NCBI GenBank assembly: GCA_965223705.1
Contig: OZ245015.1
Span: 4,343,206-4,407,205 of the forward strand
From: Myxococcota bacterium
GTDB lineage: Bacteria > Myxococcota_A > UBA9160 > UBA6930
Direction of reading: 5' to 3'
DNA: 64,000 bases
The notes under the pieces were generated by a model. The model made no database searches. It was not told the origin of the DNA and saw only the letters and a list, made by a program, of their open reading frames with translations. How positions within the stretch are numbered: position 1 is the stretch's first letter; each line of letters starts with the position of its first letter. Below, piece after piece: positions 23,213 to 40,700 of this stretch. The translations under genes and the position numbers were made by a program.

Positions 23213-23227
23213 GTCGGTCCTCCGCGA

Positions 23228-25321: not shown

Positions 25322-25367
25322 GGGCTACCTCGAGGGCCCATTACAGCACAATTTTCTGGGCCCTGAT

Positions 25368-26426: not shown

Positions 26427-26475
26427 GCGTCTTAGTCTAGTCGAAGAAGGATCGCCGGGCGGCCCCGTGCTCCCG

Positions 26476-27630: not shown

Positions 27631-27653
27631 AGAATCAATCGCCGGATTCGGTG

Positions 27654-28958
27654 CTAGATCTTCGACATCAGCAGAGTCGCTATACCGAGGAAACTGAAGA
27701 AGCCCACCACGTCGGTCACGGTCGTCAAGATGATAGACGAAGATTGGGCCGGGTCCTGGCGCAGTGCAGTGAGAACCATCGGGATCACCGCACCGGACAA
27801 GCCCGCCAACGTCATCGACAACACCATCGAGAGCCCGATGACGAGACCGAGGCCCCATGATTGGCTCCAGAAATAGACGGCTACCGAGGTGGTCAACGCG
27901 ACGGCCACCCCGTTTCCCGCGCCGGCGAGCATTTCCTTCGCGGAGACTTTGAGCCAGTGCCGTGTGCGGACCTCCCGCAAGGCCAATCCCCGCATCGTCA
28001 CGGCAAGCGCCTGTGCACCCGTATTTCCAGATTGGCCGGCCACGACGGGAAGGAGGACTGCAAGCGCTGTCACAGTCGCGATGGTCTCTTCGAAGAGACC
28101 GACCACCGTCGCGGCGAGAAAGGCGGTGAGTAAGTTGACTTGCAGCCAAGGCAAGCGTTTCCGAATCGCGAACAGCGGCGAAGAGAGGGCACGCTCTTGG
28201 TCGCTGGCGCCGACCATGGTGATCGCACTGGCCAGTGCCCGCTCTTGGGCTGCCTGTACGAGCTCTTGTTGGCGCAGCACCCCCATGAGACGACCGTCGA
28301 TGTCGACGACCGGAAGGCTGCCGACGCGCTGCGCTTCGAAGGTTTGAACGATCTCATCGCGGGAAGCTACGACGGGCACGCTGACCGGCGTGCCTCTCAC
28401 CAGACTGTCGAGCCTCACGCCATCCTCGGCCAGTACGATCGATTCCAGGGGAACGGATCCCTGAAGCACACCGTCGGCGTTGACAACGAAGACATCTTGA
28501 TCGCGACGGCTTCGAAAAGTCTTCAACCGTTTCACCACATCCTGTGTGGAGGCATCCGGTCGGAAGCTCGTCGCCCGCGGATCCATCAGGGAGCCGGCGG
28601 TTTCGGGCGGGTACTCGAGTAGCGCACGCAGCTCCTCGGCCAGATCGTGATCGAGGACCTCGAGGCAGCGTTCCAGCTCATCGGGGTTGAGTCGCGCGAG
28701 CATCGCGGCCGCTCGGTTCTGGCTCAACGCCGAAAGAACCTCGCGCCGACCGGTTTCCGAGAGGCTTGCGACAATCCGGGAGGCGCGGTCCGGAGTCAGT
28801 CGCCCGATCACAGGCAGCATGACCGCCGCGCCGAGGGTCTCGAGAAAGGCGGCAGATTCGGCATCGTCGCCCGTTTCGATCAGCCGGGCCGTGGCGTCCG
28901 GCTCGGCGATCGCGAGGAGCGAGGCCAACGCGCGATCCGCGTTCTCCGAATCAGGCAC
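27654..28958 (-). CDS. mgtE: magnesium transporter MgtE
   Basis: Track ORF 27654..29228. It has an MgtE_N region, a CBS pair and a five-helix MgtE membrane domain (LLPVVAGQSGNTGAQALAVTMRGLAL, ILTTVTDVVGFFSFLG). I propose the GTG at 28958 as the start; it is preceded by GGAGAAGGGGA. The ATG of MLPVIG is an alternative start. Confidence 0.85.
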   Translation of the reverse strand: MPDSENADRALASLLAIAEPDATARLIETGDDAESAAFLETLGAAVMLPVIGRLTPDRASRIVASLSETGRREVLSALSQNRAAAMLARLNPDELERCLEVLDHDLAEELRALLEYPPETAGSLMDPRATSFRPDASTQDVVKRLKTFRSRRDQDVFVVNADGVLQGSVPLESIVLAEDGVRLDSLVRGTPVSVPVVASRDEIVQTFEAQRVGSLPVVDIDGRLMGVLRQQELVQAAQERALASAITMVGASDQERALSSPLFAIRKRLPWLQVNLLTAFLAATVVGLFEETIATVTALAVLLPVVAGQSGNTGAQALAVTMRGLALREVRTRHWLKVSAKEMLAGAGNGVAVALTTSVAVYFWSQSWGLGLVIGLSMVLSMTLAGLSGAVIPMVLTALRQDPAQSSSIILTTVTDVVGFFSFLGIATLLMSKI

Positions 28959-29781
28959 TTCGGTCCCCTTCTCCAGCCGAGCCGGCAAATGCGTCGAGCA
29001 ACCCGCGAGCTCCTGCGGAAATGATCTCGCCGATGGCCGCGCCCGCGTCGGCGTCCTTGCCGCGCCGTGCGAGGAGCGACGCTTCGAGGTCGCGAAGCGT
29101 TCGGTAGCGAATCGCCCCCAAGTATTCTCCGCCCACGTCGACGACCGGCAGAGCGTGCACGTCCCTCCAACCGGGATGCGCCACGACGGCCGCCCGGTCG
29201 GCGGTTGCAGCGATTCGGTGCGGAGCATTCACCATGAGCTCGGCGATTGGCGTGTCCGGATCGGCGAGAAACAGCTCCCGCAAGTTGAGCGCACCGACCA
29301 GGCGCTGCTCTTGATCGACGATGTAGAGGTTGTACCGAGTGGCCTTGGGGTCTTCTCGAACTCTTGCGAGGGCCTCTCCCGCCGTCAAGCCGTGTGCCAA
29401 CGCGAGAACATTGGGATCGAGAAGCGCTCCCGCGGTTCCCTCGCGAAATCGCAAGAGCCCGCGGACGTCTCGTTCGGTCTTGCGCGGGAGAAGGCGCAGC
29501 AGCTCGTCGCGTCGCCCGTCGGACATGCGACGAAGCAAGCGTGCGCAAAGCTCGATGGGAAGCTGCTTGAGCAAGCCCGCCACTTGCTCCGCCCGGAGTT
29601 CCGCAAGTGCCGCCGTCGCGTGATGAGGAGACAGTCGGCGCAAAATACCGATCGCACTCTCGGGCTCGAGGCGAGCCAGGATTTCGGTGGTCTCGCCGGG
29701 AGAGAGCCGTTCGAGTGCGAGGGTGGCACGCTCCGGGAAGGTGTTGAGCAATTGATCCGCCAGGCGTCGCGTGAGCGTCAT
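28951..29781 (-). CDS. soluble MgtE_N + CBS-pair protein (MgtE cytoplasmic-domain paralogue, no membrane domain)
   Basis: Track ORF 28951..29841. I moved the start to the ATG at 29781 (MTLTRRLADQLL). The helical repeat region LSPGETTEILARLEPESAIGILRRLSPHHATAALAEL is followed by a CBS pair (NLYIVDQEQRLVGALNLRELF and ALPVVDVGGEYLGAIRYRTL). The protein ends without any TM helix. Confidence 0.7.
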   Translation of the reverse strand: MTLTRRLADQLLNTFPERATLALERLSPGETTEILARLEPESAIGILRRLSPHHATAALAELRAEQVAGLLKQLPIELCARLLRRMSDGRRDELLRLLPRKTERDVRGLLRFREGTAGALLDPNVLALAHGLTAGEALARVREDPKATRYNLYIVDQEQRLVGALNLRELFLADPDTPIAELMVNAPHRIAATADRAAVVAHPGWRDVHALPVVDVGGEYLGAIRYRTLRDLEASLLARRGKDADAGAAIGEIISAGARGLLDAFAGSAGEGDRSA

Positions 29782-29792
29782 GACCCCTCTCC

Positions 29793-30623
29793 TCAGCGCA
29801 AAACGACCCGCTCGAGAAGGTGAGCGTTCGGCACACTCCACACCTCGTCGTCGCTGCGCACCAAGGTATCGACGGCCCCGACCCTCTCGACCAGCCCGCG
29901 GCGGCCATCGATCTCGACGGCCGTGTTTTCGGGAAACGATTGCTTCATGAAATGACCCGCGAGGATATGCGTAATGAGTGGCCTCGCACCGAGAGCGAAC
30001 GCGAGTCCGACGGCAAGGCCCGCTGCCCCCACCATGACCGTGAGCGGAAGAACGAAGACCTCGACCGCAATGCCGAGCTGCTCGGCGGCGATCGCGAGCA
30101 TCAATCCGACCACCGCGATCTGCGCCATGAACCCGAGTCGCGGTGCGGAGAGCAAACCCGCGGCCGCGGCGCCCGAGCTCACCAAAGTCGCGACGAATCG
30201 CCCGAGGACGAGCCCGCCCAGGCCGATCAGCGCCGCGCCGATCACGTTGGGGATGAAGGCGATCAGCCGATCGATCGTGGTGGTCACCGCCTTGAGGCCG
30301 AGCGTTTCAACCGCCGACAACAAGAATGTAAGCATCACGAGCCAGAACAGCAGACGAGCGACGATCTCCGAGAAACTGAGGTTCAGCCCGGCGCGATCCA
30401 GAAGATCGGCGATCTTGAGACGCGCCGCGGCGCGGTCGAGCCCGAGGGCGCGCAGGCCGCGACCCGCCACCATCTCGAGTCCGCTCGAAACGAGCCACCC
30501 CAACGCGAAGATCAGCACGGCCCCGACGAGGTTGGGAAGAAAGGCCGCCACGTTTCCGCCGAGCTCAGAAAACACATGGACAAGAACCTCGCGCAGCGCG
30601 TCGAGGTTGAACAGTTCGCTCAT
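29793..30623 (-). CDS. mechanosensitive-channel-like membrane protein (conserved TM-helix repeats plus MscS-type beta domain)
   Basis: 276 aa. The TM-helix module repeats (NLVGAVLIFALGWLVSSGLE and NVIGAALIGLGGLVLGRFVA). The C-terminal AVEIDGRRGLVERVGAVDTLVRSDDEVWSVPNAHLL resembles the MscS beta domain. Confidence 0.55.
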   Translation of the reverse strand: MSELFNLDALREVLVHVFSELGGNVAAFLPNLVGAVLIFALGWLVSSGLEMVAGRGLRALGLDRAAARLKIADLLDRAGLNLSFSEIVARLLFWLVMLTFLLSAVETLGLKAVTTTIDRLIAFIPNVIGAALIGLGGLVLGRFVATLVSSGAAAAGLLSAPRLGFMAQIAVVGLMLAIAAEQLGIAVEVFVLPLTVMVGAAGLAVGLAFALGARPLITHILAGHFMKQSFPENTAVEIDGRRGLVERVGAVDTLVRSDDEVWSVPNAHLLERVVLR

Positions 30624-30667
30624 CGTCTCTCTCCTTGTTTCAGGAAACTTTGGGGCTCGGTGTCGGC

Positions 30668-31690
30668 TCAGGTGAGCTCTGTCTCATCGGTCAACTCCTC
30701 GTGAAAGCTCTCGACCGAATCCGCGACCCGCTCCGGCACGTCGAAGAACGCGACGTGAAAGAGAGCGTCCCCCTCGTTGACGAGGGGAAGCTCTGTCCGA
30801 CCGATCACGACACCCGCGTGCGTCGCCTTGACGATGACTTCTTCCGCGCCCAACGGGTCCGCGATGACTCCGAGCTGATCCCCGGGTTCGACTGCGGCGC
30901 CCAACTTCAAGCGCTCGCGCAGGATCCCGCTGTCCGGCGCGCGAACCCACTTACTGGCCTGCGCGACGAACGGCCGCCCGACGCCCTTGCTCCGCGGCGG
31001 CTTGACCATGCCCAGGGCGCCCATCACGCGCAGGGTGCCGTAGGCGCCCGCTTGGATGGGGGCTTCGTCAAAGCGGAGCGCTTCTCCCCCTTCATAGAGG
31101 AGCATGGGAATGCCCCGGTCGACCACCGCTTGTCGCAACGAGCTGTCGCGGAGGGTCGCGTTCACGACGACGGGAACTCCAAAAGTCCTGGCCAGACGCT
31201 CCGTCTCGGCATCGTCCAAACTGGCTCGAATTTGCGGCAAGTTCGAGCGGTGCACGGCCGCCGTGTGGAGATCGATCCCATGCGTCGATCCTTCCACCAC
31301 TTCGGAGAGAAACAAGTGCGCGAGTCGAGACGCGAGCGATCCCTGAGGCGATCCCGGAAACGAGCGGTTCAGATCTCTCCGATCGGGCAAATAGCGGGTC
31401 AATCCGACGAAGCCGTAGAGGTTCACGATCGGAACCGCGATGAGCGTACCGCGCAAGGCACGGAGGCTCCGATGGGCGAGGACGCGACGAATGATCTCGA
31501 CGCCGGCGATTTCGTCACCGTGCACCGCGGCGCACACGAACAAACGGGGACCCGGCTCCCGACCGCACACCACTTCTACCGGGAGCGCGACTTGGTTCCC
31601 GCTCACCCGTTTCGCGAGGGGTATTTGAATCCGTTTCCGCTCGCCGGGCCCGATTCGCTCGCCGGCGAGAAGAACCTCGGGATCAGGCAC
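30668..31690 (-). CDS. succinylglutamate desuccinylase/aspartoacylase (AstE/AspA, M14-like) family deacylase
   Basis: 340 aa with the zinc-site block FVCAAVHGDEIAG. The length and N-terminal pattern (GERKRIQIPLAK) match the members of this family usually found next to rimK. GTG start at 31690. Confidence 0.75.
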   Translation of the reverse strand: MPDPEVLLAGERIGPGERKRIQIPLAKRVSGNQVALPVEVVCGREPGPRLFVCAAVHGDEIAGVEIIRRVLAHRSLRALRGTLIAVPIVNLYGFVGLTRYLPDRRDLNRSFPGSPQGSLASRLAHLFLSEVVEGSTHGIDLHTAAVHRSNLPQIRASLDDAETERLARTFGVPVVVNATLRDSSLRQAVVDRGIPMLLYEGGEALRFDEAPIQAGAYGTLRVMGALGMVKPPRSKGVGRPFVAQASKWVRAPDSGILRERLKLGAAVEPGDQLGVIADPLGAEEVIVKATHAGVVIGRTELPLVNEGDALFHVAFFDVPERVADSVESFHEELTDETELT

Positions 31691-32147
31691 GTCGTGCCCT
31701 TCCCCTCTTTGCTTTCTTTTTCGGAGCCTGAACCATCCGGCGGCTCGGGTCGATCAGGAAGGGCCCCGACAGCGCGGTCCGTCCCAGGAGCATGCGGTGG
31801 ATCATCTTCCCGCGATTGACCAGGCTGAGATCGACGTCGCGCTCGACGGGCCCGAGTCTGATCCGCGTTCGAACGAAATAACGAGTCTCGGTTTCTCCGT
31901 TGCTCGAACGGACGCGTGAACGCCTCAGAACGCGTGCGGTCACGTGCACACGTCGATCTCGTCGCTCTCGATGGAGGACAACGTCGAATCGAATCCGCCC
32001 GCGCGGAAGCTCGACCACGTTTTCGACGTGGAGGGCGCTTGAGCGGGCGCCGGTATCCACCTTTGCGCGGAGCTTCTTGATGTTCCAATCGGGCAGGTCG
32101 ACGTACTCGGTCCACCCAATGAGGACGGGCTCGTCGTCCGATCTCAT
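31683..32147 (-). CDS. retropepsin-like aspartic endopeptidase (COG4067, formerly 'ATP-dependent zinc protease'; RimB-like)
   Basis: Track ORF 31683..32387. I moved the start to the ATG at 32147, which overlaps the rimK stop (ATGA). Signature: IGWTEYVDLPDWNIKKLRAKVDTGARSSALHV with a D-T-G motif. Confidence 0.75.
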   Translation of the reverse strand: MRSDDEPVLIGWTEYVDLPDWNIKKLRAKVDTGARSSALHVENVVELPRGRIRFDVVLHRERRDRRVHVTARVLRRSRVRSSNGETETRYFVRTRIRLGPVERDVDLSLVNRGKMIHRMLLGRTALSGPFLIDPSRRMVQAPKKKAKRGRARRA

Positions 32148-33382
32148 TCGCTGGGCACCGGATCCGACGACTCGCGAGCGTTCGGCGCCTTTCGCTTGCG
32201 TACCTTCCGACGGGGCTTGGGCGCGAGCCCGCGTAGAGTGAGCATCTTCCCGAAGCAGAACAGGGTGTCCCCGGCCAGGATCTCGCGGTCGTTTCGCGGG
32301 TTCGGAATCGAGACACTGCCTCGCTGGATCGTCAGGATCACCACGTCGAGACCGCGCAGGCCGGATCCTTTGACGGTTTTCCCGCACAGGTCCGAGCGCG
32401 GATCCACGGGGATCTCCATAACGCCGTACCCGCTCTGTAGTGTGAGGCGCTGGCGAATGTCGATGTCGGGGAACAGGACTTCTTGCTCGATCAGGGAAAT
32501 GATCTCACCGGCCACGTCGATTCCCGTCGCCGTTTCGATCCCCTCCAGACCGGGGGACGAGTTGACTTCCATCAACATCGGACCGTCGTTGCCTTCGAGG
32601 AGATCGACGCCCGCAACGCGGAGCCCCATGACCTGCGCTGCGTTGACCGCCACGCGCTCGTATTCCTCGTCCAGGGTGACGACCTCGGCAGAACCACCGC
32701 GGTGGATGTTGCTGCGGAACTCATCGCCTTGCGCCTGGCGGCGCATCGCCGCGACGACACGAGAGCCCACGACGAAGGCGCGGATATCCCGACCTTTGCT
32801 CTCCTTGACGAATCGCTGCAGCAAGACGCTCATCTTCGCGGGCCCCGAGAGGGTTTCGATGATGGCCTCTGCCACTTTCGTCGAATCCGCGAGGATCACC
32901 CCGACACCTTGGGTGCCCTCGAGAAGCTTGATCACCACGGGCGGCCCGCCCATACGCTCGATGCCCGGGAGGATCTCCGAGGTGTGCCGAACGAAGAGTG
33001 TCGTAGGAAGGCCGATCTTGTGGCGACTCAAGGCCTGGAGTGCGCGAAGCTTGTCGCGAGAAACCGTGATCGCGTGAGAGGGGTTCACGCAGAAGACGCC
33101 CATTTGTTCGAACTGGCGGACGACGGCGGTCCCGAACGCCGTGATCGAAGCGCCGATTCGAGGGATCACCGCGTCGTATTGCGAGAGCCTCTTGTTCTTG
33201 AAGTAGAGGTGCGGGCGACTGGTCTCCACTTCGATCGTGAAGGAGAGCGGGTTGAGTACCTTCGCCTCGTGCCCCCGTTGGGTCGCCGCCTCTTTGAGGC
33301 GACGCGTGCTGTAGAGACGCGGCCCACGTGAAAGGATCGCGATCTTGAGAGAGTCGGCCTCTTCTCTCGCAGCCATAACCAC
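32144..33382 (-). CDS. rimK: RimK-type ATP-grasp alpha-L-glutamate ligase with C-terminal RCK_C (TrkA_C) domain and basic tail
   Basis: Residues 1-300 align along their whole length with E. coli RimK as I recall it (KIAILSR, AVIPRIG, VVIKLLEGTQGVGV, DIRAFVVG, FRSNIHRGG, MEVNSSPGLEGIE). Residues ~312-386 (GYGVMEIPVDPRSDLCGKTVKGSGLRGLDVVILTIQRGSVSIPNPRNDREILAGDTLFCFGK) match the TrkA_C/RCK_C pattern. The tail is KPRRKVRKRKAP. Confidence 0.9.
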   Translation of the reverse strand: MVMAAREEADSLKIAILSRGPRLYSTRRLKEAATQRGHEAKVLNPLSFTIEVETSRPHLYFKNKRLSQYDAVIPRIGASITAFGTAVVRQFEQMGVFCVNPSHAITVSRDKLRALQALSRHKIGLPTTLFVRHTSEILPGIERMGGPPVVIKLLEGTQGVGVILADSTKVAEAIIETLSGPAKMSVLLQRFVKESKGRDIRAFVVGSRVVAAMRRQAQGDEFRSNIHRGGSAEVVTLDEEYERVAVNAAQVMGLRVAGVDLLEGNDGPMLMEVNSSPGLEGIETATGIDVAGEIISLIEQEVLFPDIDIRQRLTLQSGYGVMEIPVDPRSDLCGKTVKGSGLRGLDVVILTIQRGSVSIPNPRNDREILAGDTLFCFGKMLTLRGLAPKPRRKVRKRKAPNARESSDPVPSE

Positions 33383-33390
33383 CCCACCGT

Positions 33391-33422
33391 GAAGAGCACG
33401 AGCACCGTCTTGCTCGCTCTTC
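33391..33422. promoter_or_regulatory. imperfect 12-bp inverted repeat in the rimK / CNNM divergent intergenic region
   Basis: The element reads GAAGAGC-AC-GAGCA ccgtct TGCTC-GCTCTTC (7+5 bp with a 2-nt bulge) and starts 9 nt upstream of the rimK GTG. It could be an operator or a 5'-UTR hairpin. Confidence 0.3.
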
Positions 33423-33526
33423 GTGTCATATACCAGGTTTCCGACGGGATGGGAAAGGGATGACGGTCCGCCCAGGCGTCTCAGAGCTTGTATTGTCTCG
33501 CGACGAGGCGAATGGAGACTCGCAAG

Positions 33527-34591
33527 ATGGACAGAGAAACGCTCACGTGGGCCGGAATCGCGCTGTGTCTCGTTCAGTCCGGAATGTTTTCGGGACTGAA
33601 TCTGGCGCTTCTGGGTCTCAGCCGTCTTCAGTTGCAGGTCGAGGCAGAGTCGGGAGATCCTGCGGCGTCCCGAGTCCTGGCTCTCCGTCAGGATTCGAAC
33701 TTCCTACTCACGACGGTGCTCTGGGGCAACGTGAGTGTGAACTGTCTACTGACCCTCCTGTCGGACTCGGTCCTCTTCGGCGTCGCTGCCTTCGCGTTTT
33801 CGACCTTCGGCATTACGATCGTCGGAGAGATTCTTCCCCAGGCGTATTTCTCGCGAAACGCCATGCGCGTCGGTGCGGCGCTGACGCCCTTCGTCCGCTT
33901 CTATCAGTGGGTTCTCTTTCCAGTCGCAAAACCCACCGCTCTCCTGCTCGACGCGTGGCTCGGCGAGGAGGAAATCTCCTACTTTCGCGAGCGCGAACTC
34001 CGCGAGGTGATCCGTCAACATATGTTGGCGGAGGACGCCGACCTCGAAAGCCACGAGGGTCTGGGTGCCCTCAACTTCCTCGTGATGGATGACCTCCCGA
34101 TCGGTCAAGAGGGAGAGGCCGTCGATCCGGCTAGCGTCATCTCGCTCCCTGTCGCCGTGGACTTGCCGGTCTTCCCTTCGATCCGTCGGGACGCGGAAGA
34201 CCCCTTCTTGAAGAGGGTCGAACAAAGCGGCCACAAATGGATCGTCATCACGGATACCGAAGAACAGCCCCGCCTCGTACTGGACGCGGATGCTTTTCTG
34301 CGCGAGGCCCTGTTCGGTACGGGTGAGCTCGATCCGTACTCGTTTTGCCATCGACCCATCGTCGTCGACAACGCGCGCGTCCCCCTCGGTGTCGCGATCC
34401 GACGACTCCATGTCGAGCCGGAGCACAAAGAAGACGACGTTATCGACCAGGATCTGATTCTCGTCTGGGCCGATACGCGTCGAATCGTCACGGGAGCGGA
34501 TTTACTCGGGCGCCTCTTACGCGGGATCGTCCGCAAGCGTCGAGCGTCGCAGGCACAACGGGCACCCGTGCTGGCCGCCCCGTCCGAGTAG
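33527..34591 (+). CDS. CNNM/DUF21 transmembrane-domain protein (CorB/CNNM-type Mg2+/Co2+ transport family)
   Basis: Track ORF 33488..34591. The start is probably MDRETLTW (33527) or METRK (33512). The DUF21 pattern is SGMFSGLNLALLGLSRLQLQV...GEILPQAYFSRNA...FPVAKPTALLLD. The C-terminal region looks like a degenerate CBS pair and there is no CorC_HlyC domain. Confidence 0.7.
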   Translation: MDRETLTWAGIALCLVQSGMFSGLNLALLGLSRLQLQVEAESGDPAASRVLALRQDSNFLLTTVLWGNVSVNCLLTLLSDSVLFGVAAFAFSTFGITIVGEILPQAYFSRNAMRVGAALTPFVRFYQWVLFPVAKPTALLLDAWLGEEEISYFRERELREVIRQHMLAEDADLESHEGLGALNFLVMDDLPIGQEGEAVDPASVISLPVAVDLPVFPSIRRDAEDPFLKRVEQSGHKWIVITDTEEQPRLVLDADAFLREALFGTGELDPYSFCHRPIVVDNARVPLGVAIRRLHVEPEHKEDDVIDQDLILVWADTRRIVTGADLLGRLLRGIVRKRRASQAQRAPVLAAPSE

Positions 34592-34604: not shown

Positions 34605-35480
34605 TCAGAGGTACATCCCGACGCCTTCCCCCGGCTTCGTCGGAGGCGGCGCCTCGGCGCTACGCCCGGCGAGCATCTCTTCGTGGGTCACGCCGCCGAA
34701 CATCTGCTTCAAGCGATCGTCCCATGTGTCGGCTGTCGAAGCGACCATCTCGATCGCGAAGCGGAGCTCTTCTTCCCTGAATTCAGAGCCGAGAATGCTC
34801 TCGTCAAACCAGATCGAGCGATTCTCGGGATCGAGTGCAAAACGGCCGAACATCAGTCCGAAGTTGAGTCTCGCGAGGAAGAGACCGAGCTCGGGCGTGA
34901 CGACGACACCGACATTGGTAATCGCGAAGACGCGAATCACCACGCGCCCATTCGGCATGGCGCGGGGAGCGACCATGAGGTGGACCCCGGCCATGGGAAC
35001 GACGTAGTCGCCATCGTTGTCCTTGTCCGGTCGTCGCCCGAGGATCTCCGCAACGACGCTTTCGATCCGGACTCGCGCGAGGGCGAGCTTCTTCTTCGCT
35101 TCGTGCTCGAGTTTGCGGCTGCCGTGTGCGATGTCGAGTTTCAATTCGGGCTTTTCGCCAAAGACCTCCACCAGGAGTTGTGTCAGCTGATCCACCGCGG
35201 CTTCGGCCTCGGGCGCGGCTTTCGTCCAGGGGTTGGCCGCGTTGGCCGGATCCTCGGAACTGAATCCGCGCTCCCTCAGAGCACGCCGCACGTCCGCGTC
35301 GAGCTCGGGCACAGATCGAGGGCGCCCCGGCACCGAGACCTCGAGCCCGCCGTCCTCCCGGCGGTTGATCTCCGCGACATGAAGCGGACGCCCCGACGGG
35401 ACCACGGCGATGAAATCAAGCGGTTCGAGCGCCTCGACCTCGGCAATCAGAAAGGCTGTCGCGACGGAAGGATCGGCCAT
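34605..35480 (-). CDS. YbjN-like (type III secretion chaperone-like) domain protein
   Basis: 291 aa. The C-terminal half DGDYVVPMAGVHLMVAPRAMPNGRVVIRVFAITNVG...LARLNFGLMFGRFALDPENRSIWFDESI fits the YbjN/sensory-transduction-regulator fold pattern. Confidence 0.65.
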   Translation of the reverse strand: MADPSVATAFLIAEVEALEPLDFIAVVPSGRPLHVAEINRREDGGLEVSVPGRPRSVPELDADVRRALRERGFSSEDPANAANPWTKAAPEAEAAVDQLTQLLVEVFGEKPELKLDIAHGSRKLEHEAKKKLALARVRIESVVAEILGRRPDKDNDGDYVVPMAGVHLMVAPRAMPNGRVVIRVFAITNVGVVVTPELGLFLARLNFGLMFGRFALDPENRSIWFDESILGSEFREEELRFAIEMVASTADTWDDRLKQMFGGVTHEEMLAGRSAEAPPPTKPGEGVGMYL

Positions 35481-35931: not shown

Positions 35932-37767
35932 ATGTTCCTTCGAGCGCGCGGTTTGGCAATCTTGATTGCGGTGCCGTTGTTCGCTGCGACCTCGATCACC
36001 GGGGCAGGTGCCGCGGAGGCACCGCCGATCCGCAATGTCCGAGAGATCATCTGGCGCGGGGCCGAAGCAGTACCCGTCGGTGAGCTCGAAGAAGCGATCT
36101 TGACGACCCGAGCGAGCCGCCTTCCGTGGGTGGAATCGCGCCCTTTCGAAGAGGACGTCCTCGACGGGGACGTCCATCGTCTCCGGAGCCACTACCGTCA
36201 GCAGGGATTCTACGAGGCCGAGATCGGCGCCACCGTGGAAGCGGTGGGAAAAAGCCGGGTTCGCGTCGTCTTCGACATCGAGGAAGGTGAACCCGTCAAC
36301 CTCACAACCTTTGATTTCTCCGTCTCCGAAGTGATTCCGGAGTTGTCCGAAACCTCCCTGCGAGAAGGGCTAGCCCTCAAGGTCGGCGAGATCTTCAGCG
36401 TCGCGCGCTACCGCAAGAGCCGAGATCGCATTCTCAACCGGCTGGCCGACGTGGGATATCCGGCTGCGCGCGTTCAGGGCGGGGCGGATGTCACGCTCGA
36501 AAACCGCGAAGCCGTGGTGCGTTGGTTGGTGCACCCGGGGCGCCGGGTCCATCTCGGCGATTTTTCTGTCGAGGGACTCGAGCGAGTCGAACGCGAGCTC
36601 CTCCTGCGGGAGTTGCCACTCCGAGAGGGCGAGCTCTATTCGCGTAAGCGGATCCGAGACGCCCAGCGCGCCTTGTACGACCTCGGTCTGTTCGCCTCCG
36701 TAGCGATCGAAGCGCGGAGCCCCGGGAAAGGCGGGACGAACAACGCTTCGTGGCCGGTCGAGATACGCGTCAAGGAGCGCGAACCGCGCTCCATCCGTTT
36801 CGGCTTGGGCTACGGAACCGACGATCGCCTCCGCGCGCGCGGGGAGTGGCAACATCGAAACTTCCTCGGCGGCCGTCGCTCTCTTGCGCTCGAGGGAAAG
36901 GTCTCGTCTCTCATCCAAGGCTTCGAAGCCACCTTCGTCCAACCCCGCTTCATCGATTGGGACACGGACCTGACCCTCGATCTCCAGTTCGCCCAAGAGA
37001 CGACGCCGGCCTTCGACAGCGAGGGGGTTGCCCTGGGCTGGTCGGTCGAGCGGCCGATTTTCGAGAAAGTGACTGTCCGCGGCGGCCAGCGTTTCGAGCT
37101 TCAGAAGGTGACGGAAATCGAAGCTGACGATCCACTCGTCTCCGGCGATGAGGACGAGTCGTTTCGTTTGAGCGTGCTGCAGTTCGGTTTGCGCCGGGTA
37201 GACGTCGATTCCGTGGTCGATCCTCGTCGGGGCACCTGGCTCGACCTCACGCTCGAGCCGTCGCTCAAAGCTTTGGGCTCGGAAGTCGACTACGTGCGGT
37301 CCGTCCTGGACGTTCGGGGTTACACGCCCGTCGGCCCCATGGTCCTGGCAGCCCGCATGCGGCTCGGCGCCCTCGAACCGCTGCGCGACGACGGCGCTGG
37401 CGCGGTCCCCGTCTTCAAGCGCTTTTTCTCCGGCGGCAGTGCGTCCGTGCGTGGCTTCGATCTAGACCGTCTCGGCCCCCTCGACGACAACGAAGATCCT
37501 ATCGGCGGTCTGACCGTCGCAGAGGTCGGGGTTGAGCTGCGTTTCCCTCTGTGGAAACAACTCGGCGGTGTGTTGTTCACCGACGCCGGCCAAGTGAACC
37601 GTCGCTCCTTCCACCTGGGCGGTAGCGAGTTCTTCTACTCGACGGGTGTCGGCTTCCGCTACGCGACGCCGATCGGTCCTCTCCGCGTCGACCTCGCCCA
37701 GATCCTCAACCCGCCCTCGGGTATCCAGCCCTTCCGCATCCATTTCTCGATCGGACACGCGTTTTGA
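35932..37767 (+). CDS. tamA: Omp85-family outer-membrane protein, TamA-like (POTRA domains plus beta-barrel)
   Basis: 611 aa with a signal peptide (AILIAVPLFAATSITGAGA). POTRA-like repeats (VVFDIEEGEPVNL) and a C-terminal surface-antigen barrel ending FSIGHAF are present. It overlaps tamB by 4 nt. Confidence 0.75.
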   Translation: MFLRARGLAILIAVPLFAATSITGAGAAEAPPIRNVREIIWRGAEAVPVGELEEAILTTRASRLPWVESRPFEEDVLDGDVHRLRSHYRQQGFYEAEIGATVEAVGKSRVRVVFDIEEGEPVNLTTFDFSVSEVIPELSETSLREGLALKVGEIFSVARYRKSRDRILNRLADVGYPAARVQGGADVTLENREAVVRWLVHPGRRVHLGDFSVEGLERVERELLLRELPLREGELYSRKRIRDAQRALYDLGLFASVAIEARSPGKGGTNNASWPVEIRVKEREPRSIRFGLGYGTDDRLRARGEWQHRNFLGGRRSLALEGKVSSLIQGFEATFVQPRFIDWDTDLTLDLQFAQETTPAFDSEGVALGWSVERPIFEKVTVRGGQRFELQKVTEIEADDPLVSGDEDESFRLSVLQFGLRRVDVDSVVDPRRGTWLDLTLEPSLKALGSEVDYVRSVLDVRGYTPVGPMVLAARMRLGALEPLRDDGAGAVPVFKRFFSGGSASVRGFDLDRLGPLDDNEDPIGGLTVAEVGVELRFPLWKQLGGVLFTDAGQVNRRSFHLGGSEFFYSTGVGFRYATPIGPLRVDLAQILNPPSGIQPFRIHFSIGHAF

Positions 37768-40700
37768 AACGAGCGTTGCGTCTCATCGGCTGGTCGGCGC
37801 TGGGTTTGCTCTTGATCGCATCCGGCGTCCTCGGCGCCGTTGTAGGCGTCGCTCATGGCTGGCAGCGGGACCGACTGCGCGGCTTCGTCGAAGCGCGCCT
37901 GACGGATGCCCTCGGAGAACCGGTGCGGTTCGACGCGCTCGAGGGGGTGCTCTACCGAGAGATCGGCGTGACAGGACTCGAAATCGGTCCCGCCGACGCA
38001 CGTATCGCCGCCGTCTCACGCGCACGTCTTCGATGGAACGCGTCCGCTCTTCTTCAAGGCCGCGTCGAAGTGTCCGAACTGATCATCGAGGAACCCCGGG
38101 GACGACTGGGCGGCGGCGAGTCTTTCTTGGACGGAGGCGACGATGAACCGGAGGCGGGTGGGGAGCCTCCTTTCGCGTTGCACATCGAGACAGCGACGAT
38201 CCGTGGCGGGCAACTCGAGTGGGCCCCGGACGCCGACCGTCGCGTCCTGGTTCGCGGCGACTTGGCGATTCGCGATCTGTCGGTCGACGCCGATGGATTC
38301 GCCGCAACCGGAGTAGACGCCGAGGGCACTGTCGAAGATCGCGCTCGCCGCCGGGTCGCTTTTTCAGTTCGGGGCGCATGGCAGCACGACGCCTGGCGGC
38401 TCGACGAATTTCAGGCGCACGGCGCGGGCTTGGCGGCGTCGGGCCAGGGCCGAGGAGACACCCTCGTCGTGGAACAGCTTCACGTCGCGATGGACGTGAC
38501 TTCGCTCGGAGAGCTCCTCGAGCTGGCAGGCGTTTCCGCGGACGTTTCGATCGGTTCCCTCAAAACCTCTCTCAACCTCGGCGGACCTTGGTCCGCGTTG
38601 GGCGGCGCTGTCACCCTCCGCGCCGACGATATCGCCGCGGGTGGCAGGCGCTGGGAATCGTTACGCCTCGAGGCCAAGAGTTCGGGGCCCTCTCGCTTCA
38701 TCTTCGACGAACTGAGCTTGCGCGGCGGTCCACTCGCGGGGACGGTCGCGCCCGGCGCGACGGCACGGTTCGACGAGACGCGCATCGCCCTCGAGGGATT
38801 CGATCTCTCGTTCGACGGCGGCGGCAAGTTGCTGCTGCGCGAGCTCGCGTTCCCGAGATCGGCCGCGACACCGGACGCTCTGATCGCGCACCCCGGCTTT
38901 GGCGGAGACCTACGCGCGGAGCGTTTGCGCCTAGAAGCTTTCGCGCAACTTCTCCCGCTGGACGGAATCGATCTCGCCGGCGTCCTGACCGCGGATCTCC
39001 GGTTCCGAGGAAACGCGTCGGGCTTCCTCGCTGCCGGCGTCGCCGGACTCGAGGACGGAGCGTTCGCCGCGCCGACTGCCCGGGCGCAGAAGGTGTCTGC
39101 CGAGGTTCGTTTCGGCGAGGCGTTGGGCCCCCTCGCCGGGCGGCTCCGCGCGTCGCTCGGGGGCATCGAGAGCGACGGCGCACCACTCGGCGAGATGGTG
39201 TTCGACGTCGCATTCGACGAGCGGGCCCGCTTCGAGGTATCGGACCTCCGCTGGAAGACAGACGCGATAAGCGTCGCCGCTGAACCCGGGAGCCGGTTCA
39301 ATCTCACGGGAGATCATGTCGTACTCGACACCCTGACGCTGCACTCCGGAAGCCAGCGACTCGTCGCGCGGGGGCGTCTCAGCCAACAACGTTTCTCCGA
39401 CCTCGTCATCGAGCTCCGCCGTCTGGATCTGCCCTGGCTGCGGGACCTGATGGCGGGTTTTGATCTTGCACTCGAGGATGAAACCCTCGCGGGAACGCTC
39501 ACGGGAAAGGTCCACCTGAACGGACCCCTCACCGACCCCTCGGTCCGCGGCGAACTTCAGGGCGATCGGGTCGTGCTCTCGGGAGTCGCTTTCGACAGGG
39601 TCGATGCCACGGCGGTGTCCGTGGCAGAGACGGTTGAACTCGAAACCGCTTGGATGGTTGACGGGCGTCGGGCCCTGGAACTCGCCGTCCACACGTCTCG
39701 CGCCGATCTTCGTCGCGACCCTTCGAGCCTCTTGGCCTTCCCCGCGACGCGCGTTGACGTCGTCTCGAGCGAGTTCGATCTCGCTTCCGTGCAAGCCTTC
39801 GCCCCGGCTTCTGTCGAGGCGATCGGAGGTCGCCTCACGGTCGACGTCTCGTTGCGCGGAGGAGATCCCCCCACGGTCATCCGCGGCACTTTTGCGTTGG
39901 AGGACGGCTCGCTCAAGCTAGCCGGGGTCGAACAAGCGGCGGCGCCGATCGCGTTGTCGGGCACCGCCAACGTGCGTGGCATCGTTGTCGAGAAGCTCGC
40001 GATCGGACCGGAAGGTGCCCGCTTACAGGGACACCTCGGGTTGGGTTGGCCCGGCACCGAGTCCGACGCACTCTCGGGAGAGCTCCGCTTGGCGGGCTAC
40101 ACCTTGCGCTGGCCCGGCATCGCGAAGGGAAAGCTCGAAGGTGTCCTGTCGCTTTCGGGCCGGGTGCGGGCGCCCGTTGCAGCGGGGAACCTCGTGCTCT
40201 CGGAGGTCGCCATCCGTCTCCCGGAGACCGGCGCCGCGGAATTGAAGGAGATCCGTGTGCGGAGTGGCAGCCCGGACGACACCGCGCTGTCCTATCGCGA
40301 GGAGGAGGAAGCGTCACCACTTGACCCGGTGGCCCTCGATCTCGACGTTGAACTCAAAGCCAACTCGTGGGTGCGCGGCCGGGGGGTCGAGGCCGAGATC
40401 AAGGGCAATGTCGATGTCAAGAAGCGACCGGGCGGGGAGTTCACCTACGCAGGCGTCCTACAGACCGTGCGGGGCACCTATGAGATCTACGGTCGCCGTT
40501 TCCAGATCCAGAAAGCGCAAGCGCGGCTCGACGGCGGGAGTGAATTGGACCCGATCTTGAACGTCCGAGCGCTGCACCGAGTTCGCGCGATGCGAATCTT
40601 CGCTCTCCTCGAAGGTCGACTATCGGATCCCCGACTTCGCTTTGAAAGCGAGCCCAACCTGACCGAAACGGACATCGCTTCGTACTTGATCTTCGGCCGA

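What the first reader, a model, noticed from the sequence alone, without database searches (positions are those of the whole stretch)
32225..32449. RimK ligase carries a C-terminal RCK_C (TrkA_C) ligand-binding domain and a poly-basic tail
Seen in sequence: after a full-length RimK core (about 300 aa, collinear with E. coli RimK) the protein continues for about 110 aa. The extension reads GYGVMEIPVDPRSDLCGKTVKGSGLRGLDVVILTIQRGSVSIPNPRNDREILAGDTLFCFGK and then KPRRKVRKRKAPNAR. Established knowledge: this pattern (G.tl.e..l......v.ai.R.g....P...t.l..gD.l...G) is the TrkA_C/RCK_C fold. That fold gates K+ transporters and, in KtrA/CpaA, is the c-di-AMP binding site. Inference: this is an ATP-grasp peptide ligase under direct small-ligand control (nucleotide, c-di-AMP or ion). 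The basic tail could tether it to ribosomes, RNA or poly-glutamate. I cannot tell how common this architecture is.
Basis: partly seen in the sequence, partly recalled or inferred. Interest (0 to 1): 0.6.

Follow-up and report, generated by a model that had tools for sequence, protein, structure and literature searches.

The report
RimK glutamate ligase with RCK_C sensor tail
This gene encodes a normal RimK glutamate-adding enzyme that also carries a small ligand-sensing domain of the kind that gates potassium channels, plus a conserved positively charged motif; this build turns out to be widespread in bacteria but has never been studied.

Summary
The 412-aa product of window 32144..33382 (-) is a full RimK. 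It scores above NCBIfam's RimK equivalog cut-off and matches Pseudomonas RimK at E = 7e-98. Then come a conserved hinge, one TrkA_C/RCK_C domain (Pfam 33.9 bits against a cut-off of 27; Foldseek probability 1.00 to MthK, TrkA, KhtT and BusR RCK_C) and an Arg/Lys-rich motif.

It is not a one-off. All 120 best database homologs carry the domain. So do all 80 best species genomes found in a GTDB scan, spanning at least eight phyla and including cultured Microbacterium, Leifsonia, Knoellia, Microbulbifer, Rhodopirellula and Luteolibacter.

The gene is translationally coupled to a RimB-like poly-glutamate endopeptidase and an AstE/AspA-type zinc hydrolase. MscS channels and CorA, MgtE or CNNM transporters recur nearby.

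Ligand control is plausible but untested. In this window a c-di-AMP synthase gene (cdaA) lies in the same gene string, and the KtrA Arg169 equivalent is present. Across the family, cdaA linkage (3/80) and that Arg (33/80) are not conserved.

No paper searched mentions RimK together with RCK or TrkA_C. Verdict: a real, uncharacterised variant of a known enzyme system, of moderate interest.

The parts
32144..33382 (-). rimK-RCK_C gene, 412 aa from the GTG at 33382. The database homolog P0001 starts at the ATG at 33376 (410 aa).
   Evidence: ORF list; Pfam and NCBIfam; 100% identical to P0001.
33068..33349 (-). RimK pre-ATP-grasp domain (Rimk_N), residues 12-105.
   Evidence: PF18030, E = 1.7e-39.
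32489..33058 (-). RimK ATP-grasp catalytic domain, residues 109-298.
   Evidence: PF08443, E = 3.3e-57; 7qyr RimK E = 7e-98 over residues 12-300.
32423..32488 (-). Conserved hinge between the ligase core and RCK_C, residues 299-320 (EQEVLFPDIDIRQRLTLQSGYG).
   Evidence: F, P, D, RQRL and GYGV are invariant or nearly invariant across phyla. AlphaFold pLDDT is below 50 for residues 304-315. The stretch aligns with the 'LIFPD' segment that precedes RCK_C in TrkA TM1088B.
32222..32422 (-). RCK_C / TrkA_C domain, residues 321-387 (Pfam hit 321-378).
   Evidence: PF02080 at 33.9 bits, cut-off 27; Foldseek probability 1.00 to RCK_C proteins; model pLDDT 93-97.
32174..32218 (-). Arg/Lys-rich motif, residues 389-403 (KPRRKVRKRKAPNAR).
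   Evidence: Conserved in position and character. The mean is 7.5 K/R in 17 residues among the 120 close homologs. Of the 80 diverse fusions, 79 could be anchored on the xFGx motif, and 71 of those have at least 5 K/R in 20 residues, with the motif 'IPx(K/R)xRRRRxPKVxxLP'. Predicted disordered.
32147..32173 (-). Variable, mildly acidic C-terminal end, residues 404-412 (ESSDPVPSE).
   Evidence: Mean net charge of the last 8 residues is -0.9 in close homologs, and the sequence is not conserved.
31683..32147 (-). rimB-like retropepsin-type aspartic endopeptidase gene, 154 aa. Its ATG overlaps the rimK stop codon (ATGA).
   Evidence: PF05618, E = 2.9e-24; NCBIfam RimB 95 bits, below the equivalog cut-off of 200. 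Overlap read directly from the sequence. Adjacent to the fusion in 54 of 80 loci and in 3 of 3 close relatives.
30668..31690 (-). AstE/AspA-family zinc hydrolase gene, 340 aa; candidate glutamate-releasing peptidase.
   Evidence: PF24827, E = 2.6e-35. Next to the fusion in 37 of 80 loci and in 3 of 3 close relatives.
29793..30623 (-). Membrane protein carrying the conserved TM helix of mechanosensitive channels (PF05552).
   Evidence: MscS-family genes lie within about 7 kb of the fusion in 12 of 80 loci and in L081.
27654..29841 (-). Two Mg2+-transporter-related genes: an MgtE_N+CBS protein (28951..29841) and MgtE with a CBS domain (27654 to about 28950).
   Evidence: Pfam. The exact start codons were not determined.
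26476..27640 (-). cdaA-type diadenylate cyclase (c-di-AMP synthase) gene with CdaA_N, DAC and a YbbR-like C-terminus. It is the last gene of this same-strand string that was examined in detail; a 2OG-Fe(II) oxygenase ORF (25368..26558) follows on the same strand. The start coordinate is approximate.
   Evidence: PF02457, E = 9.7e-33, and PF19293. Linked to the fusion only in L001, L002 and L017 among the 80 loci.
33488..34591 (+). Divergently transcribed CNNM/CorC-type divalent-cation transporter gene.
   Evidence: PF01595, E = 1.5e-34.

Best explanation
The gene encodes a genuine RimK-type ATP-grasp alpha-L-glutamate ligase. [quoted passage not shown] Here it is extended by a conserved hinge, a single RCK_C (TrkA_C) domain and a conserved Arg/Lys-rich motif.

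It belongs to a widespread but unstudied RimK subfamily. The gene normally sits in a translationally coupled trio with a RimB-like poly-glutamate endopeptidase and an AstE/AspA-type zinc hydrolase. Together these would form a glutamate add/remove cycle.

The most likely mechanism has three parts.
- RimK is a tetramer, so the tails are brought together. RCK_C domains work as dimers with a ligand pocket at their interface. Ligand binding would be passed through the conserved hinge to change ligase activity.
- This would supply the regulatory input that RimA and c-di-GMP supply in Pseudomonas.
- The basic motif would hold a polyanionic partner: the poly-glutamate product, the acidic S6 tail, or rRNA.

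In this lineage c-di-AMP is the leading ligand candidate (my estimate about 0.25-0.3). In other lineages the ligand probably differs.

Shown here: domain identities, fold, conservation, gene linkage. Inferred: dimerisation, any ligand, the direction of the effect, and the partner of the basic motif.
For: Identity of the parts:
- RimK core above the equivalog cut-off, and 7qyr at E = 7e-98.
- TrkA_C above the Pfam cut-off, with the RCK_C fold confirmed.

Selection on the whole extension:
- All 120 best homologs and all 80 best GTDB loci keep it.
- The hinge residues F/P/D/RQRL/GYGV and the RCK_C core residues are invariant or nearly so across phyla.
- The basic motif is conserved across phyla.

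System context:
- ATGA overlap with the rimB-like gene.
- RimB-like neighbour in 54 of 80 loci, AstE-like neighbour in 37 of 80, and the trio in all three close relatives.

Precedents:
- RimK is a tetramer (PMC10092738).
- Pseudomonas RimK is directly stimulated by c-di-GMP, Kd about 1 uM, and by RimA and RimB (PMC7343187).
- RimB cleaves poly-glutamate tails and stimulates poly-glutamate synthesis (PMC11957791).
- RCK_C dimers bind c-di-AMP at their interface in KtrA and BusR.

c-di-AMP hints in this window:
- The DAC gene is in the same gene string, together with two CBS-domain proteins.
- The Arg169 equivalent is present, and hydrophobic residues are kept at the positions of I163, I168, I176 and P191.
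Against: - No binding or activity data exist for any member, and no paper in the library mentions the fusion.
- The residues that line the c-di-AMP pocket are largely fold-core residues, so their conservation does not discriminate between ligands.
- The discriminating Arg is kept in only 33 of 80 fusions: Trp in Microbacteriaceae, and Ser/Glu/Asp/Leu/Trp in gammaproteobacteria.
- cdaA linkage is restricted to one lineage (3 of 80 loci; 0 of 3 close relatives).
- E. coli lacks the c-di-AMP pathway. From my own knowledge most gammaproteobacteria do too, yet several of them carry the fusion.
- The monomer model gives no confident contact between RCK_C and the core, because the hinge has pLDDT below 50. 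Allosteric coupling therefore has no structural support here.
Confidence: 0.5

Rival explanations
1. The RCK_C domain senses an inorganic ion or osmolyte (K+, Na+, Mg2+, Ca2+ or glutamate itself), not a nucleotide. This would tie glutamate polymerisation to ionic or osmotic state.
For: - Ion-handling genes recur around the fusion in several phyla. MscS-family channels occur in 12 of 80 loci and CorA in 9 of 80, often as adjacent MscS+CorA pairs. There are also Na/Ca exchangers.
- L081 has the order MscS-CorA-MscS-rimK, with the last mscS end and the rimK start sharing a base.
- The Microbulbifer loci have rimK-RCK_C followed directly by mscS, with no rimB or astE.
- This window has an MscS-helix protein, MgtE and CNNM next to the operon.
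- The top structural neighbours include the Ca2+-gated MthK RCK.
- rimK (K05844) was reported as more frequent in brackish than in marine genomes (PMC10219603).
Against: - From my own knowledge, the Ca2+ site of MthK and the nucleotide sites of KtrA/TrkA lie mainly in the RCK_N lobe, which is absent here.
- I know of no isolated RCK_C domain shown to bind an ion on its own.
- The neighbourhood association is partial, its enrichment was only roughly estimated, and the loci are phylogenetically non-independent.
Confidence: 0.2
2. The RCK_C domain binds no ligand. It is an assembly or docking module. It might stabilise a higher-order RimK oligomer, or recruit RimB, the AstE-like hydrolase or the ribosome, with the basic motif doing the actual substrate binding.
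For: - BusR RCK_C is a constitutive dimer even without ligand.
- The most conserved parts of the extension are the hinge and the basic motif, rather than any recognisable polar ligand-contact residue.
- The partner genes are translationally coupled, which suggests a complex.
- Pseudomonas RimK is known to interact with RimB and RimA.
Against: - The fusion also occurs without nearby rimB or astE: 26 of 80 loci lack a RimB-like neighbour within the stretch held.
- Tail-less RimK already forms tetramers and works with RimB, so an extra assembly domain is not obviously needed.
- Every RCK_C domain with a known function acts in a regulatory role.
Confidence: 0.2
3. The extension is an artefact: an assembly chimera, a frameshift or a read-through joining rimK to an unrelated downstream trkA-like fragment.
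For: None found.
Against: - The same continuous ORF occurs in more than 120 independent database clusters and in 80 species genomes from at least eight phyla, including complete chromosomes.
- The junction (hinge) is itself conserved.
- The downstream gene starts at the rimK stop codon.
Confidence: 0.01

Closest known systems
RimK of E. coli and Pseudomonas (ribosomal protein S6--L-glutamate ligase; PDB 4iwx, 5zct, 7qyr, 7qys)
   Same: The same two-domain ATP-grasp core, collinear over residues 12-301 and scoring above NCBIfam's equivalog cut-off. Expected to share the tetrameric state and the glutamate-adding chemistry.
   Different: The solved RimK chains are 306-320 residues long as deposited (tags included) and end just after the core. 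This protein adds about 112 residues: hinge, RCK_C domain, basic motif and a variable end.
Pseudomonas RimABK system (RimK with the RimB protease, the RimA EAL protein and c-di-GMP)
   Same: rimK is co-transcribed with a retropepsin-like RimB-type protease. RimK activity is under second-messenger and protein control (PMC7343187, PMC11957791).
   Different: No RimA/EAL gene is among the genes of the string. The RimB-like protein scores below the RimB equivalog cut-off (95 against 200 bits). A fused RCK_C domain and an AstE/AspA-type hydrolase are present instead. Any messenger would bind a dedicated domain rather than the RimK core.
RimBK hybrid proteins (Flavobacteriales, Rhodobacterales; PMC11957791)
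   Same: Another natural RimK fusion, which shows that RimK tolerates added domains and that the system evolves by domain shuffling.
   Different: That hybrid joins the protease to RimK. Here a sensor-type domain is fused at the C-terminus and the protease stays a separate gene.
c-di-AMP-binding RCK_C domains of KtrA/KtrC, CpaA, KhtT and BusR
   Same: The same fold: KhtT with c-di-AMP superposes at rmsd 1.6-2.1 A over 70-80 residues. Residues matching the hydrophobic pocket and Arg169 of S. aureus KtrA are present in this protein. A c-di-AMP synthase is encoded 4.5 kb downstream.
   Different: Those domains regulate K+ transporters or a transcription factor; this one is attached to an enzyme. 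The Arg is not conserved across the fusion family and no binding has been tested.
TTLL tubulin glutamylases with a cationic microtubule-binding domain (from my own knowledge, not checked here)
   Same: An ATP-grasp glutamate ligase that relies on a positively charged appendage to hold an acidic substrate surface. This is a working analogy for the Arg/Lys-rich motif.
   Different: Eukaryotic, different substrate, and no RCK_C domain. This is an analogy only, not homology of the appendage.

Membership tests
RimK family (S6--L-glutamate ligase; NCBIfam PRK10446 / TIGR00768) | Pre-ATP-grasp (Rimk_N) plus RimK ATP-grasp domains, with a score above the curated equivalog cut-off | tested here: met
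   PF18030 E = 1.7e-39; PF08443 E = 3.3e-57. PRK10446 scores 337.2 bits against a cut-off of 331; TIGR00768 scores 258 against 143.
RimK family (S6--L-glutamate ligase; NCBIfam PRK10446 / TIGR00768) | ATP-dependent addition of alpha-linked glutamates to the S6 C-terminus, or poly-alpha-glutamate synthesis | not testable with these tools
   Needs an enzyme assay. rpsF is not in the window or in the loci held, so even the S6 C-terminus could not be inspected.
RCK_C / TrkA_C domain (PF02080) | Profile HMM match above the gathering score | tested here: met
   33.9 bits against 27 at residues 321-378. All 67 fusions scanned from other phyla also match.
RCK_C / TrkA_C domain (PF02080) | RCK_C fold | tested here: met
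   The tail model has pLDDT 93-97 over the domain. Foldseek probability is 1.00 to PH0236, MthK, TM1088, KhtT and BusR.
RCK/KTN regulators of K+ transport (TrkA, KtrA, MthK ring) | RCK_N (KTN, Rossmann) lobe preceding RCK_C, and association with a K+ channel or transporter | tested here: not met
   No TrkA_N domain; the N-terminal partner is an ATP-grasp ligase. No K+ transporter was identified among the neighbouring genes scanned. It is therefore not a K+-transport regulator, although it shares the C-lobe.
c-di-AMP receptor RCK_C domains (KtrA, KtrC, CpaA, KhtT, BusR) | Pocket residues equivalent to S. aureus KtrA I163, I164, D167, I168, R169, A170, N175, I176, P191 | tested here: inconclusive
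   By manual alignment to the 4xtt sequence the window has V, K, G, L, R, G, D, V, P. The gap placement is ambiguous. The Arg is invariant in the close clade but is kept in only 33 of 80 fusions.
c-di-AMP receptor RCK_C domains (KtrA, KtrC, CpaA, KhtT, BusR) | The organism makes c-di-AMP | tested here: met
   A CdaA_N+DAC gene lies at about 26476..27640 (-) in the same gene string. For the other lineages that carry the fusion this was not testable, because only about 20 kb per genome is held.
c-di-AMP receptor RCK_C domains (KtrA, KtrC, CpaA, KhtT, BusR) | Specific binding of c-di-AMP | not testable with these tools
   Needs DRaCALA or ITC on the purified tail.
RimABK system (Pseudomonas) | A co-transcribed RimB retropepsin-like endopeptidase | tested here: met
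   PF05618 E = 2.9e-24, with an ATGA overlap with rimK. It scores only 95 bits against the RimB equivalog cut-off of 200, so it is RimB-like rather than a certified ortholog.
RimABK system (Pseudomonas) | A co-transcribed RimA (EAL-domain) regulator and c-di-GMP input | tested here: not met
   None of the same-strand genes scanned from rimK through the 2OG-Fe(II) oxygenase ORF (32144 down to 25368), nor the divergent CNNM neighbour, has an EAL domain.

The most novel reading that the evidence does not exclude
The RimK-RCK_C / RimB-like / AstE-like trio may not be mainly a ribosome-modification system. It could be a regulated glutamate buffer for osmotic and ionic homeostasis.

Free glutamate is the main counter-ion of K+. 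The ligase would polymerise it into osmotically inert poly-alpha-glutamate when the RCK_C domain reports one state (c-di-AMP, K+ or a related signal). The endopeptidase and the zinc hydrolase would release it again when needed.

That would explain the recurrent linkage with MscS channels, CorA/MgtE/CNNM transporters and, in this lineage, the c-di-AMP synthase. It would also make this the first enzyme, rather than transporter or transcription factor, controlled through an RCK_C domain.
Probability: 0.1. Interest if true: 0.8.

Novelty: new variant of a known kind. Interest (0 to 1): 0.5.

Why it matters
RimK is one of the few bacterial enzymes that remodels the ribosome after translation, and in Pseudomonas it reshapes the proteome under second-messenger control. 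This RimK subfamily is spread across at least eight phyla and has a dedicated sensor-type domain built in.

That points to a different and probably older or more general way of regulating glutamylation. It also gives a simple, testable handle: a 90-residue tail whose ligand can be screened.

If the ligand is c-di-AMP, the known reach of that messenger would extend from K+ and osmolyte transport to ribosome modification or poly-glutamate metabolism. If it is an ion, glutamate polymerisation would be linked directly to ionic state.

The conserved AstE/AspA-type partner is also a candidate for the RimB-independent S6-tail trimming activity inferred in Pseudomonas (PMC7343187). Cultured carriers such as Microbacterium, Leifsonia, Knoellia, Microbulbifer, Rhodopirellula and Luteolibacter make experiments feasible.

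Tried and rejected
- **Tail-only word-index search.** It returned only short metagenomic fragments and added nothing on distribution.
- **Exhaustive search with the tail against 50%-identity representatives.** It found 300 hits at E <= 1e-3 and 67 at E <= 1e-10. These were mostly fragments, plus a few full-length divergent fusions (P0178, P0181, P0244, confirmed). P0186 has the RimK domains and the tail similarity but no Pfam TrkA_C hit at E <= 0.001. Typical 220-aa KtrA/TrkA proteins followed. Clustering prevents a census.
- **Naming the source organism.** The only clue is that near homologs are labelled Myxococcota or Myxococcales.
- **cdaA linkage as a family-wide property.** Rejected: 3 of 80 loci and 0 of 3 close relatives.
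- **The acidic C-terminal end as a conserved self-substrate or pseudo-substrate for glutamylation.** In close homologs the last residue is A (38 of 120; 26 end in 'DA') or E (33 of 120). In the diverse set it is not conserved (E 15, S 13, G 11, A 10 of 79). No support.
- **Automatic alignment to KtrA.** It put a gap exactly at Arg169, so I read the residue after the conserved 'GL' manually. The mapping is therefore tentative.
- **Terminator and promoter scan of 25000-34000.** No signal above shuffled sequence.
- **rpsF.** It is in neither the window nor the loci, so the S6 C-terminus could not be checked.
- **Fold search of the full-length model against AFDB50.** The library was unavailable.
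- **First literature query, 'RimK'+'TrkA'.** It matched only unrelated cancer papers.
Full report
**1. What is at the coordinates**

The finding's span 32225..32449 corresponds to residues 312-386.

Pfam assigns three domains:
- Rimk_N at 12-105 (E = 1.7e-39).
- RimK ATP-grasp at 109-298 (E = 3.3e-57).
- TrkA_C at 321-378 (E = 2.9e-8, 33.9 bits, gathering cut-off 27).

NCBIfam's RimK equivalog model PRK10446 scores 337.2 bits against a cut-off of 331 over residues 12-301. By sequence against the PDB, the core matches Pseudomonas RimK 7qyr at E = 7e-98 over residues 12-300, and also E. coli RimK 4iwx/5zct. The tail matches the RCK_C part of Thermotoga TrkA TM1088 (3l4b, 3jxo) at about 1e-4, and MthK only weakly (E about 0.07).

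**2. Structure**

An AlphaFold model of the full protein was built from a 60-sequence alignment (mean pLDDT 75.5). It gives a confident ligase core and a confident small domain at 317-383. Confidence is low for the connector at 304-315 and for residues 393-405.

A model of the tail alone has mean pLDDT 80.4, with 93-97 over the domain. Its strand and helix order is that expected for RCK_C. Foldseek against the PDB returns only RCK_C-containing proteins at the top, all with probability 1.00:
- the PhoU-TrkA_C protein PH0236;
- the MthK gating ring;
- TM1088 TrkA;
- KhtT in complex with c-di-AMP (rmsd 1.6-2.1 A over 70-80 residues);
- BusR.

The fold is therefore RCK_C. The fold alone does not reveal the ligand.

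**3. How common it is**

- All 120 best hits in the 5.8-billion-protein collection are 75-86% identical and 375-419 aa long, and all carry PF02080. Those with names are labelled S6--L-glutamate ligase from Myxococcota or Myxococcales, and one from Hyphomicrobiaceae.
- An exhaustive HMMER pass with the tail alone found further full-length fusions only 36-41% identical in the tail: P0178, P0181, P0186 and P0244. Pfam confirmed RimK plus TrkA_C for P0178, P0181 and P0244. P0186 has the RimK domains but no TrkA_C hit at E <= 0.001.
- I scanned one genome per GTDB species with an alignment of the junction plus tail. All 67 scanned individually hit both RimK and TrkA_C in Pfam.
- By record titles these loci come from Myxococcota/deltaproteobacteria, Bdellovibrionales, Planctomycetota, Verrucomicrobiota, Actinomycetota, Gammaproteobacteria, Gemmatimonadota, Acidobacteriota and MAGs labelled Spirochaetales. 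Named genera and families are:
  - Actinomycetota: Microbacterium, Leifsonia, Agromyces, Knoellia, Terracoccus, Serinicoccus and Acidimicrobiia.
  - Gammaproteobacteria: Microbulbifer, Aquisalimonas, Halieaceae, Kangiellaceae and Woeseiaceae.
  - Planctomycetota: Rhodopirellula, Pirellulaceae, Isosphaeraceae and Phycisphaerales.
  - Verrucomicrobiota: Luteolibacter and Opitutaceae.

The architecture is widespread and is silently annotated as plain RimK. None of the three literature searches that targeted the combination of RimK or ATP-grasp with RCK, TrkA-C or c-di-AMP terms found a paper discussing it. The two most relevant RimK papers do not mention it either.

**4. Anatomy of the extension**

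Across phyla the extension has four parts.

- **Hinge.** 'VxFPxxDxRQRLxxxxGYGVxE' has F, P, D, RQRL and GYGV invariant or nearly so. It is at least as conserved as the RCK_C core, even though AlphaFold is unsure of its conformation. It aligns with the 'LIFPD' segment that precedes RCK_C in TrkA TM1088B. The fusion therefore seems to have brought part of the RCK inter-lobe connector along with it.
- **RCK_C domain.** Its conserved signatures are G-K-T, G-L, D-x-x-V-L-T-x-x-R, I-P-N-P and G-D-x-L-L-C-F-G.
- **Arg/Lys-rich motif.** It follows a short helix and a Pro. Here it reads 'LAPKPRRKVRKRKAP'. In Actinomycetota it is 'IPERRRRRAKVRKLP', and in Gammaproteobacteria and Planctomycetota 'VPAKTRRRRQPKVxxLP'. 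In the 120 close homologs the mean is 7.5 K/R in 17 residues. In the diverse set, 71 of 79 have at least 5 K/R in 20 residues.
- **Variable end.** It is mildly acidic and not conserved.

The basic stretch is thus a conserved motif and not a compositional accident, which argues for a specific binding role.

**5. Gene context**

The rimK stop codon overlaps the ATG of the next gene (ATGA at 32147-32144). That gene encodes a 154-aa retropepsin-like protease of the RimB type. It hits PF05618 at E = 2.9e-24, and scores 95 bits on NCBIfam RimB, below the equivalog cut-off of 200. Next comes an AstE/AspA-family zinc hydrolase, overlapping by a few bases (PF24827, E = 2.6e-35).

The same order, rimK-RCK_C then the rimB-like gene then the astE-like gene, with 4-base overlaps, is found in all three close relatives whose contigs I fetched (L081-L083). 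Among the 80 diverse loci, a RimB-like gene is nearby in 54 and an AstE-like gene in 37.

Published work shows the following:
- RimB cleaves poly-glutamate tails from S6 and stimulates poly-alpha-glutamate synthesis by RimK (PMC11957791).
- Pseudomonas RimK is stimulated by direct c-di-GMP binding (Kd about 1 uM), by RimA and by RimB (PMC7343187).
- RimK is a tetramer (PMC10092738).

The core of what is here is therefore a known kind of system, a RimK/RimB glutamylation cycle. It has two unstudied additions: the fused RCK_C tail and the zinc hydrolase. It lacks RimA.

**6. The c-di-AMP question**

Downstream on the same strand, with gaps of about 50 bases or less, come four more genes:
- a membrane protein with the mechanosensitive-channel TM helix;
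- an MgtE_N+CBS protein;
- MgtE;
- a CdaA-type diadenylate cyclase (CdaA_N plus DAC, E = 9.7e-33).

This organism therefore makes c-di-AMP, and its synthase may be co-transcribed with the RCK_C-bearing ligase and two CBS proteins.

The S. aureus KtrA residues that contact c-di-AMP are I163, I164, D167, I168, R169, A170, N175, I176 and P191. R169 and the isoleucines are the conserved ones (PMC7288161). I recovered the 4xtt sequence and aligned it by hand. The window protein has V, K, G, L, R, G, D, V, P at those positions. The Arg is invariant among the 60 close homologs (R341).

These points favour c-di-AMP in this lineage. Against generalising:
- cdaA is near the fusion in only 3 of the 80 loci (L001, L002, L017) and in none of L081-L083.
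- The Arg is kept in only 33 of 80 fusions. It is Trp in 17, mainly Microbacteriaceae, and Ser/Glu/Asp/Leu/Trp in 11 of the 12 gammaproteobacterial ones; Kangiellaceae L029 keeps Arg.
- The hydrophobic pocket residues are also fold-core residues.
- E. coli lacks the pathway, and from my own knowledge most gammaproteobacteria do too.

I rate c-di-AMP at about 0.25-0.3 for this protein and lower for the family as a whole.

**7. A second contextual theme**

I clustered all ORFs within about 7 kb of the fusion in the 80 loci. After the RimB-like and AstE-like genes, the next most recurrent neighbours are MscS-family mechanosensitive channels (12 loci) and CorA-type channels (9 loci). They often occur as an adjacent pair (L016, L040, L051, L066, L078, L079). 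Na/Ca exchangers occur in a few loci (Pfam confirmation).

- L081 has MscS-CorA-MscS immediately upstream, with the last mscS end and the rimK start sharing a base.
- The two Microbulbifer loci have rimK-RCK_C followed directly by mscS and have no rimB or astE.
- This window itself has the MscS-helix protein, MgtE and a divergent CNNM gene.

CorA is usually present in one to a few copies per genome. A chance neighbour within 14 kb should therefore be well under 2%, against the 11% seen. This is a rough estimate from general knowledge, not a computed control, and the loci are not phylogenetically independent.

A metagenomic study also reported rimK (K05844) as more frequent in brackish than in marine genomes (PMC10219603). 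Together these observations hint that the subfamily is tied to ionic or osmotic homeostasis.

**8. Most likely mechanism, and what is inferred**

Shown here:
- a bona fide RimK core;
- a bona fide RCK_C domain;
- a conserved hinge and a conserved basic motif;
- coupling to a RimB-like protease and a zinc hydrolase.

Inferred: the RimK tetramer pairs the RCK_C domains. The pair binds a small ligand at its interface, as in KtrA, KhtT and BusR. The hinge transmits this to the ATP-grasp domain and changes glutamate addition. The basic motif holds a polyanionic partner, which could be the poly-glutamate product, the acidic S6 tail or rRNA.

This would be the counterpart of the RimA/c-di-GMP input in Pseudomonas. 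Confidence is about 0.5 for ligand-dependent regulation in general. The rivals are an ion or osmolyte sensor (0.2), a ligand-free assembly or docking module (0.2) and an artefact (0.01, excluded by conservation).

**9. Novelty and verdict**

The parts are known, and the domain combination is visible in precomputed Pfam annotations. As far as the searchable literature shows, however, nobody has described or tested it. I file it as a new variant of a known kind: RimK systems with a built-in RCK_C sensor module.

Interest is moderate (0.5).
- It is not a surprise in kind, because RimK was already known to be regulated by a second messenger, and RCK_C is a promiscuous regulatory domain.
- It is widespread and experimentally tractable.
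- It could connect c-di-AMP or ion sensing to ribosome modification or poly-glutamate metabolism.

The most novel reading not excluded is a regulated glutamate-polymer buffer for osmotic and ionic homeostasis (probability about 0.1).

Noticed in passing
window 26476..27640 (-), with 27654..29841 (-): A CdaA-type c-di-AMP synthase gene (CdaA_N, DAC and a YbbR-like end) lies in the same tightly packed same-strand gene string as rimK-RCK_C. It is preceded by MgtE and an MgtE_N+CBS protein. CBS domains are another known class of c-di-AMP receptor (my own knowledge).
   Followed up: yes
window 30668..31690 (-); also L081-L083 and 37 of L001-L080: An AstE/AspA-family zinc hydrolase is a conserved third partner of rimK and the rimB-like gene. 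It is not discussed in the RimABK papers I read. It is a candidate for the RimB-independent S6-tail degrading activity inferred in Pseudomonas (PMC7343187).
   Followed up: partly
L016, L040, L051, L066, L078, L079, L081; also L054 and L067: MscS-family channel and CorA genes, often as an adjacent pair, recur next to rimK-RCK_C in several phyla. In Microbulbifer the fusion gene is followed directly by mscS, with no rimB or astE.
   Followed up: partly
window 32423..32488 (-), residues 299-320: The hinge 'VLFPxIDxRQRLTLxxGYG' is as conserved across phyla as the RCK_C core, yet AlphaFold gives it pLDDT below 50. It may only become ordered in the oligomer or when docked on the ligase.
   Followed up: partly
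window 32144..32147: The rimK stop codon and the rimB-like start codon overlap as ATGA. The real rimB-like gene is therefore 31683..32147 (154 aa), not the 234-aa ORF listed mechanically.
   Followed up: yes
window 34605..35480 (-): A YbjN / TY-Chap family protein lies 1.2 kb upstream of rimK, beyond the CNNM gene. In E. coli, ybjN is the gene next to rimK (from memory, not checked).
   Followed up: no
window 21410..26558 (-): Hydantoinase/oxoprolinase A and B subunits and a 2OG-Fe(II) oxygenase follow cdaA on the same strand. Oxoprolinase yields glutamate, which may or may not be relevant.
   Followed up: no
window 35932..41051 (+): An Omp85/POTRA protein followed by a TamB-family protein, which looks like a TamA/TamB translocation-and-assembly pair.
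   Followed up: no
L001, L002, L005: The closest GTDB relatives of this gene (57-74% identity in the junction-plus-tail query) are MAGs labelled 'uncultured Spirochaetales' or 'uncultured Spirochaetaceae'. Named protein homologs at about 80% identity are labelled Myxococcota. The MAG labels may be unreliable, and the window's own organism was not identified.
   Followed up: partly
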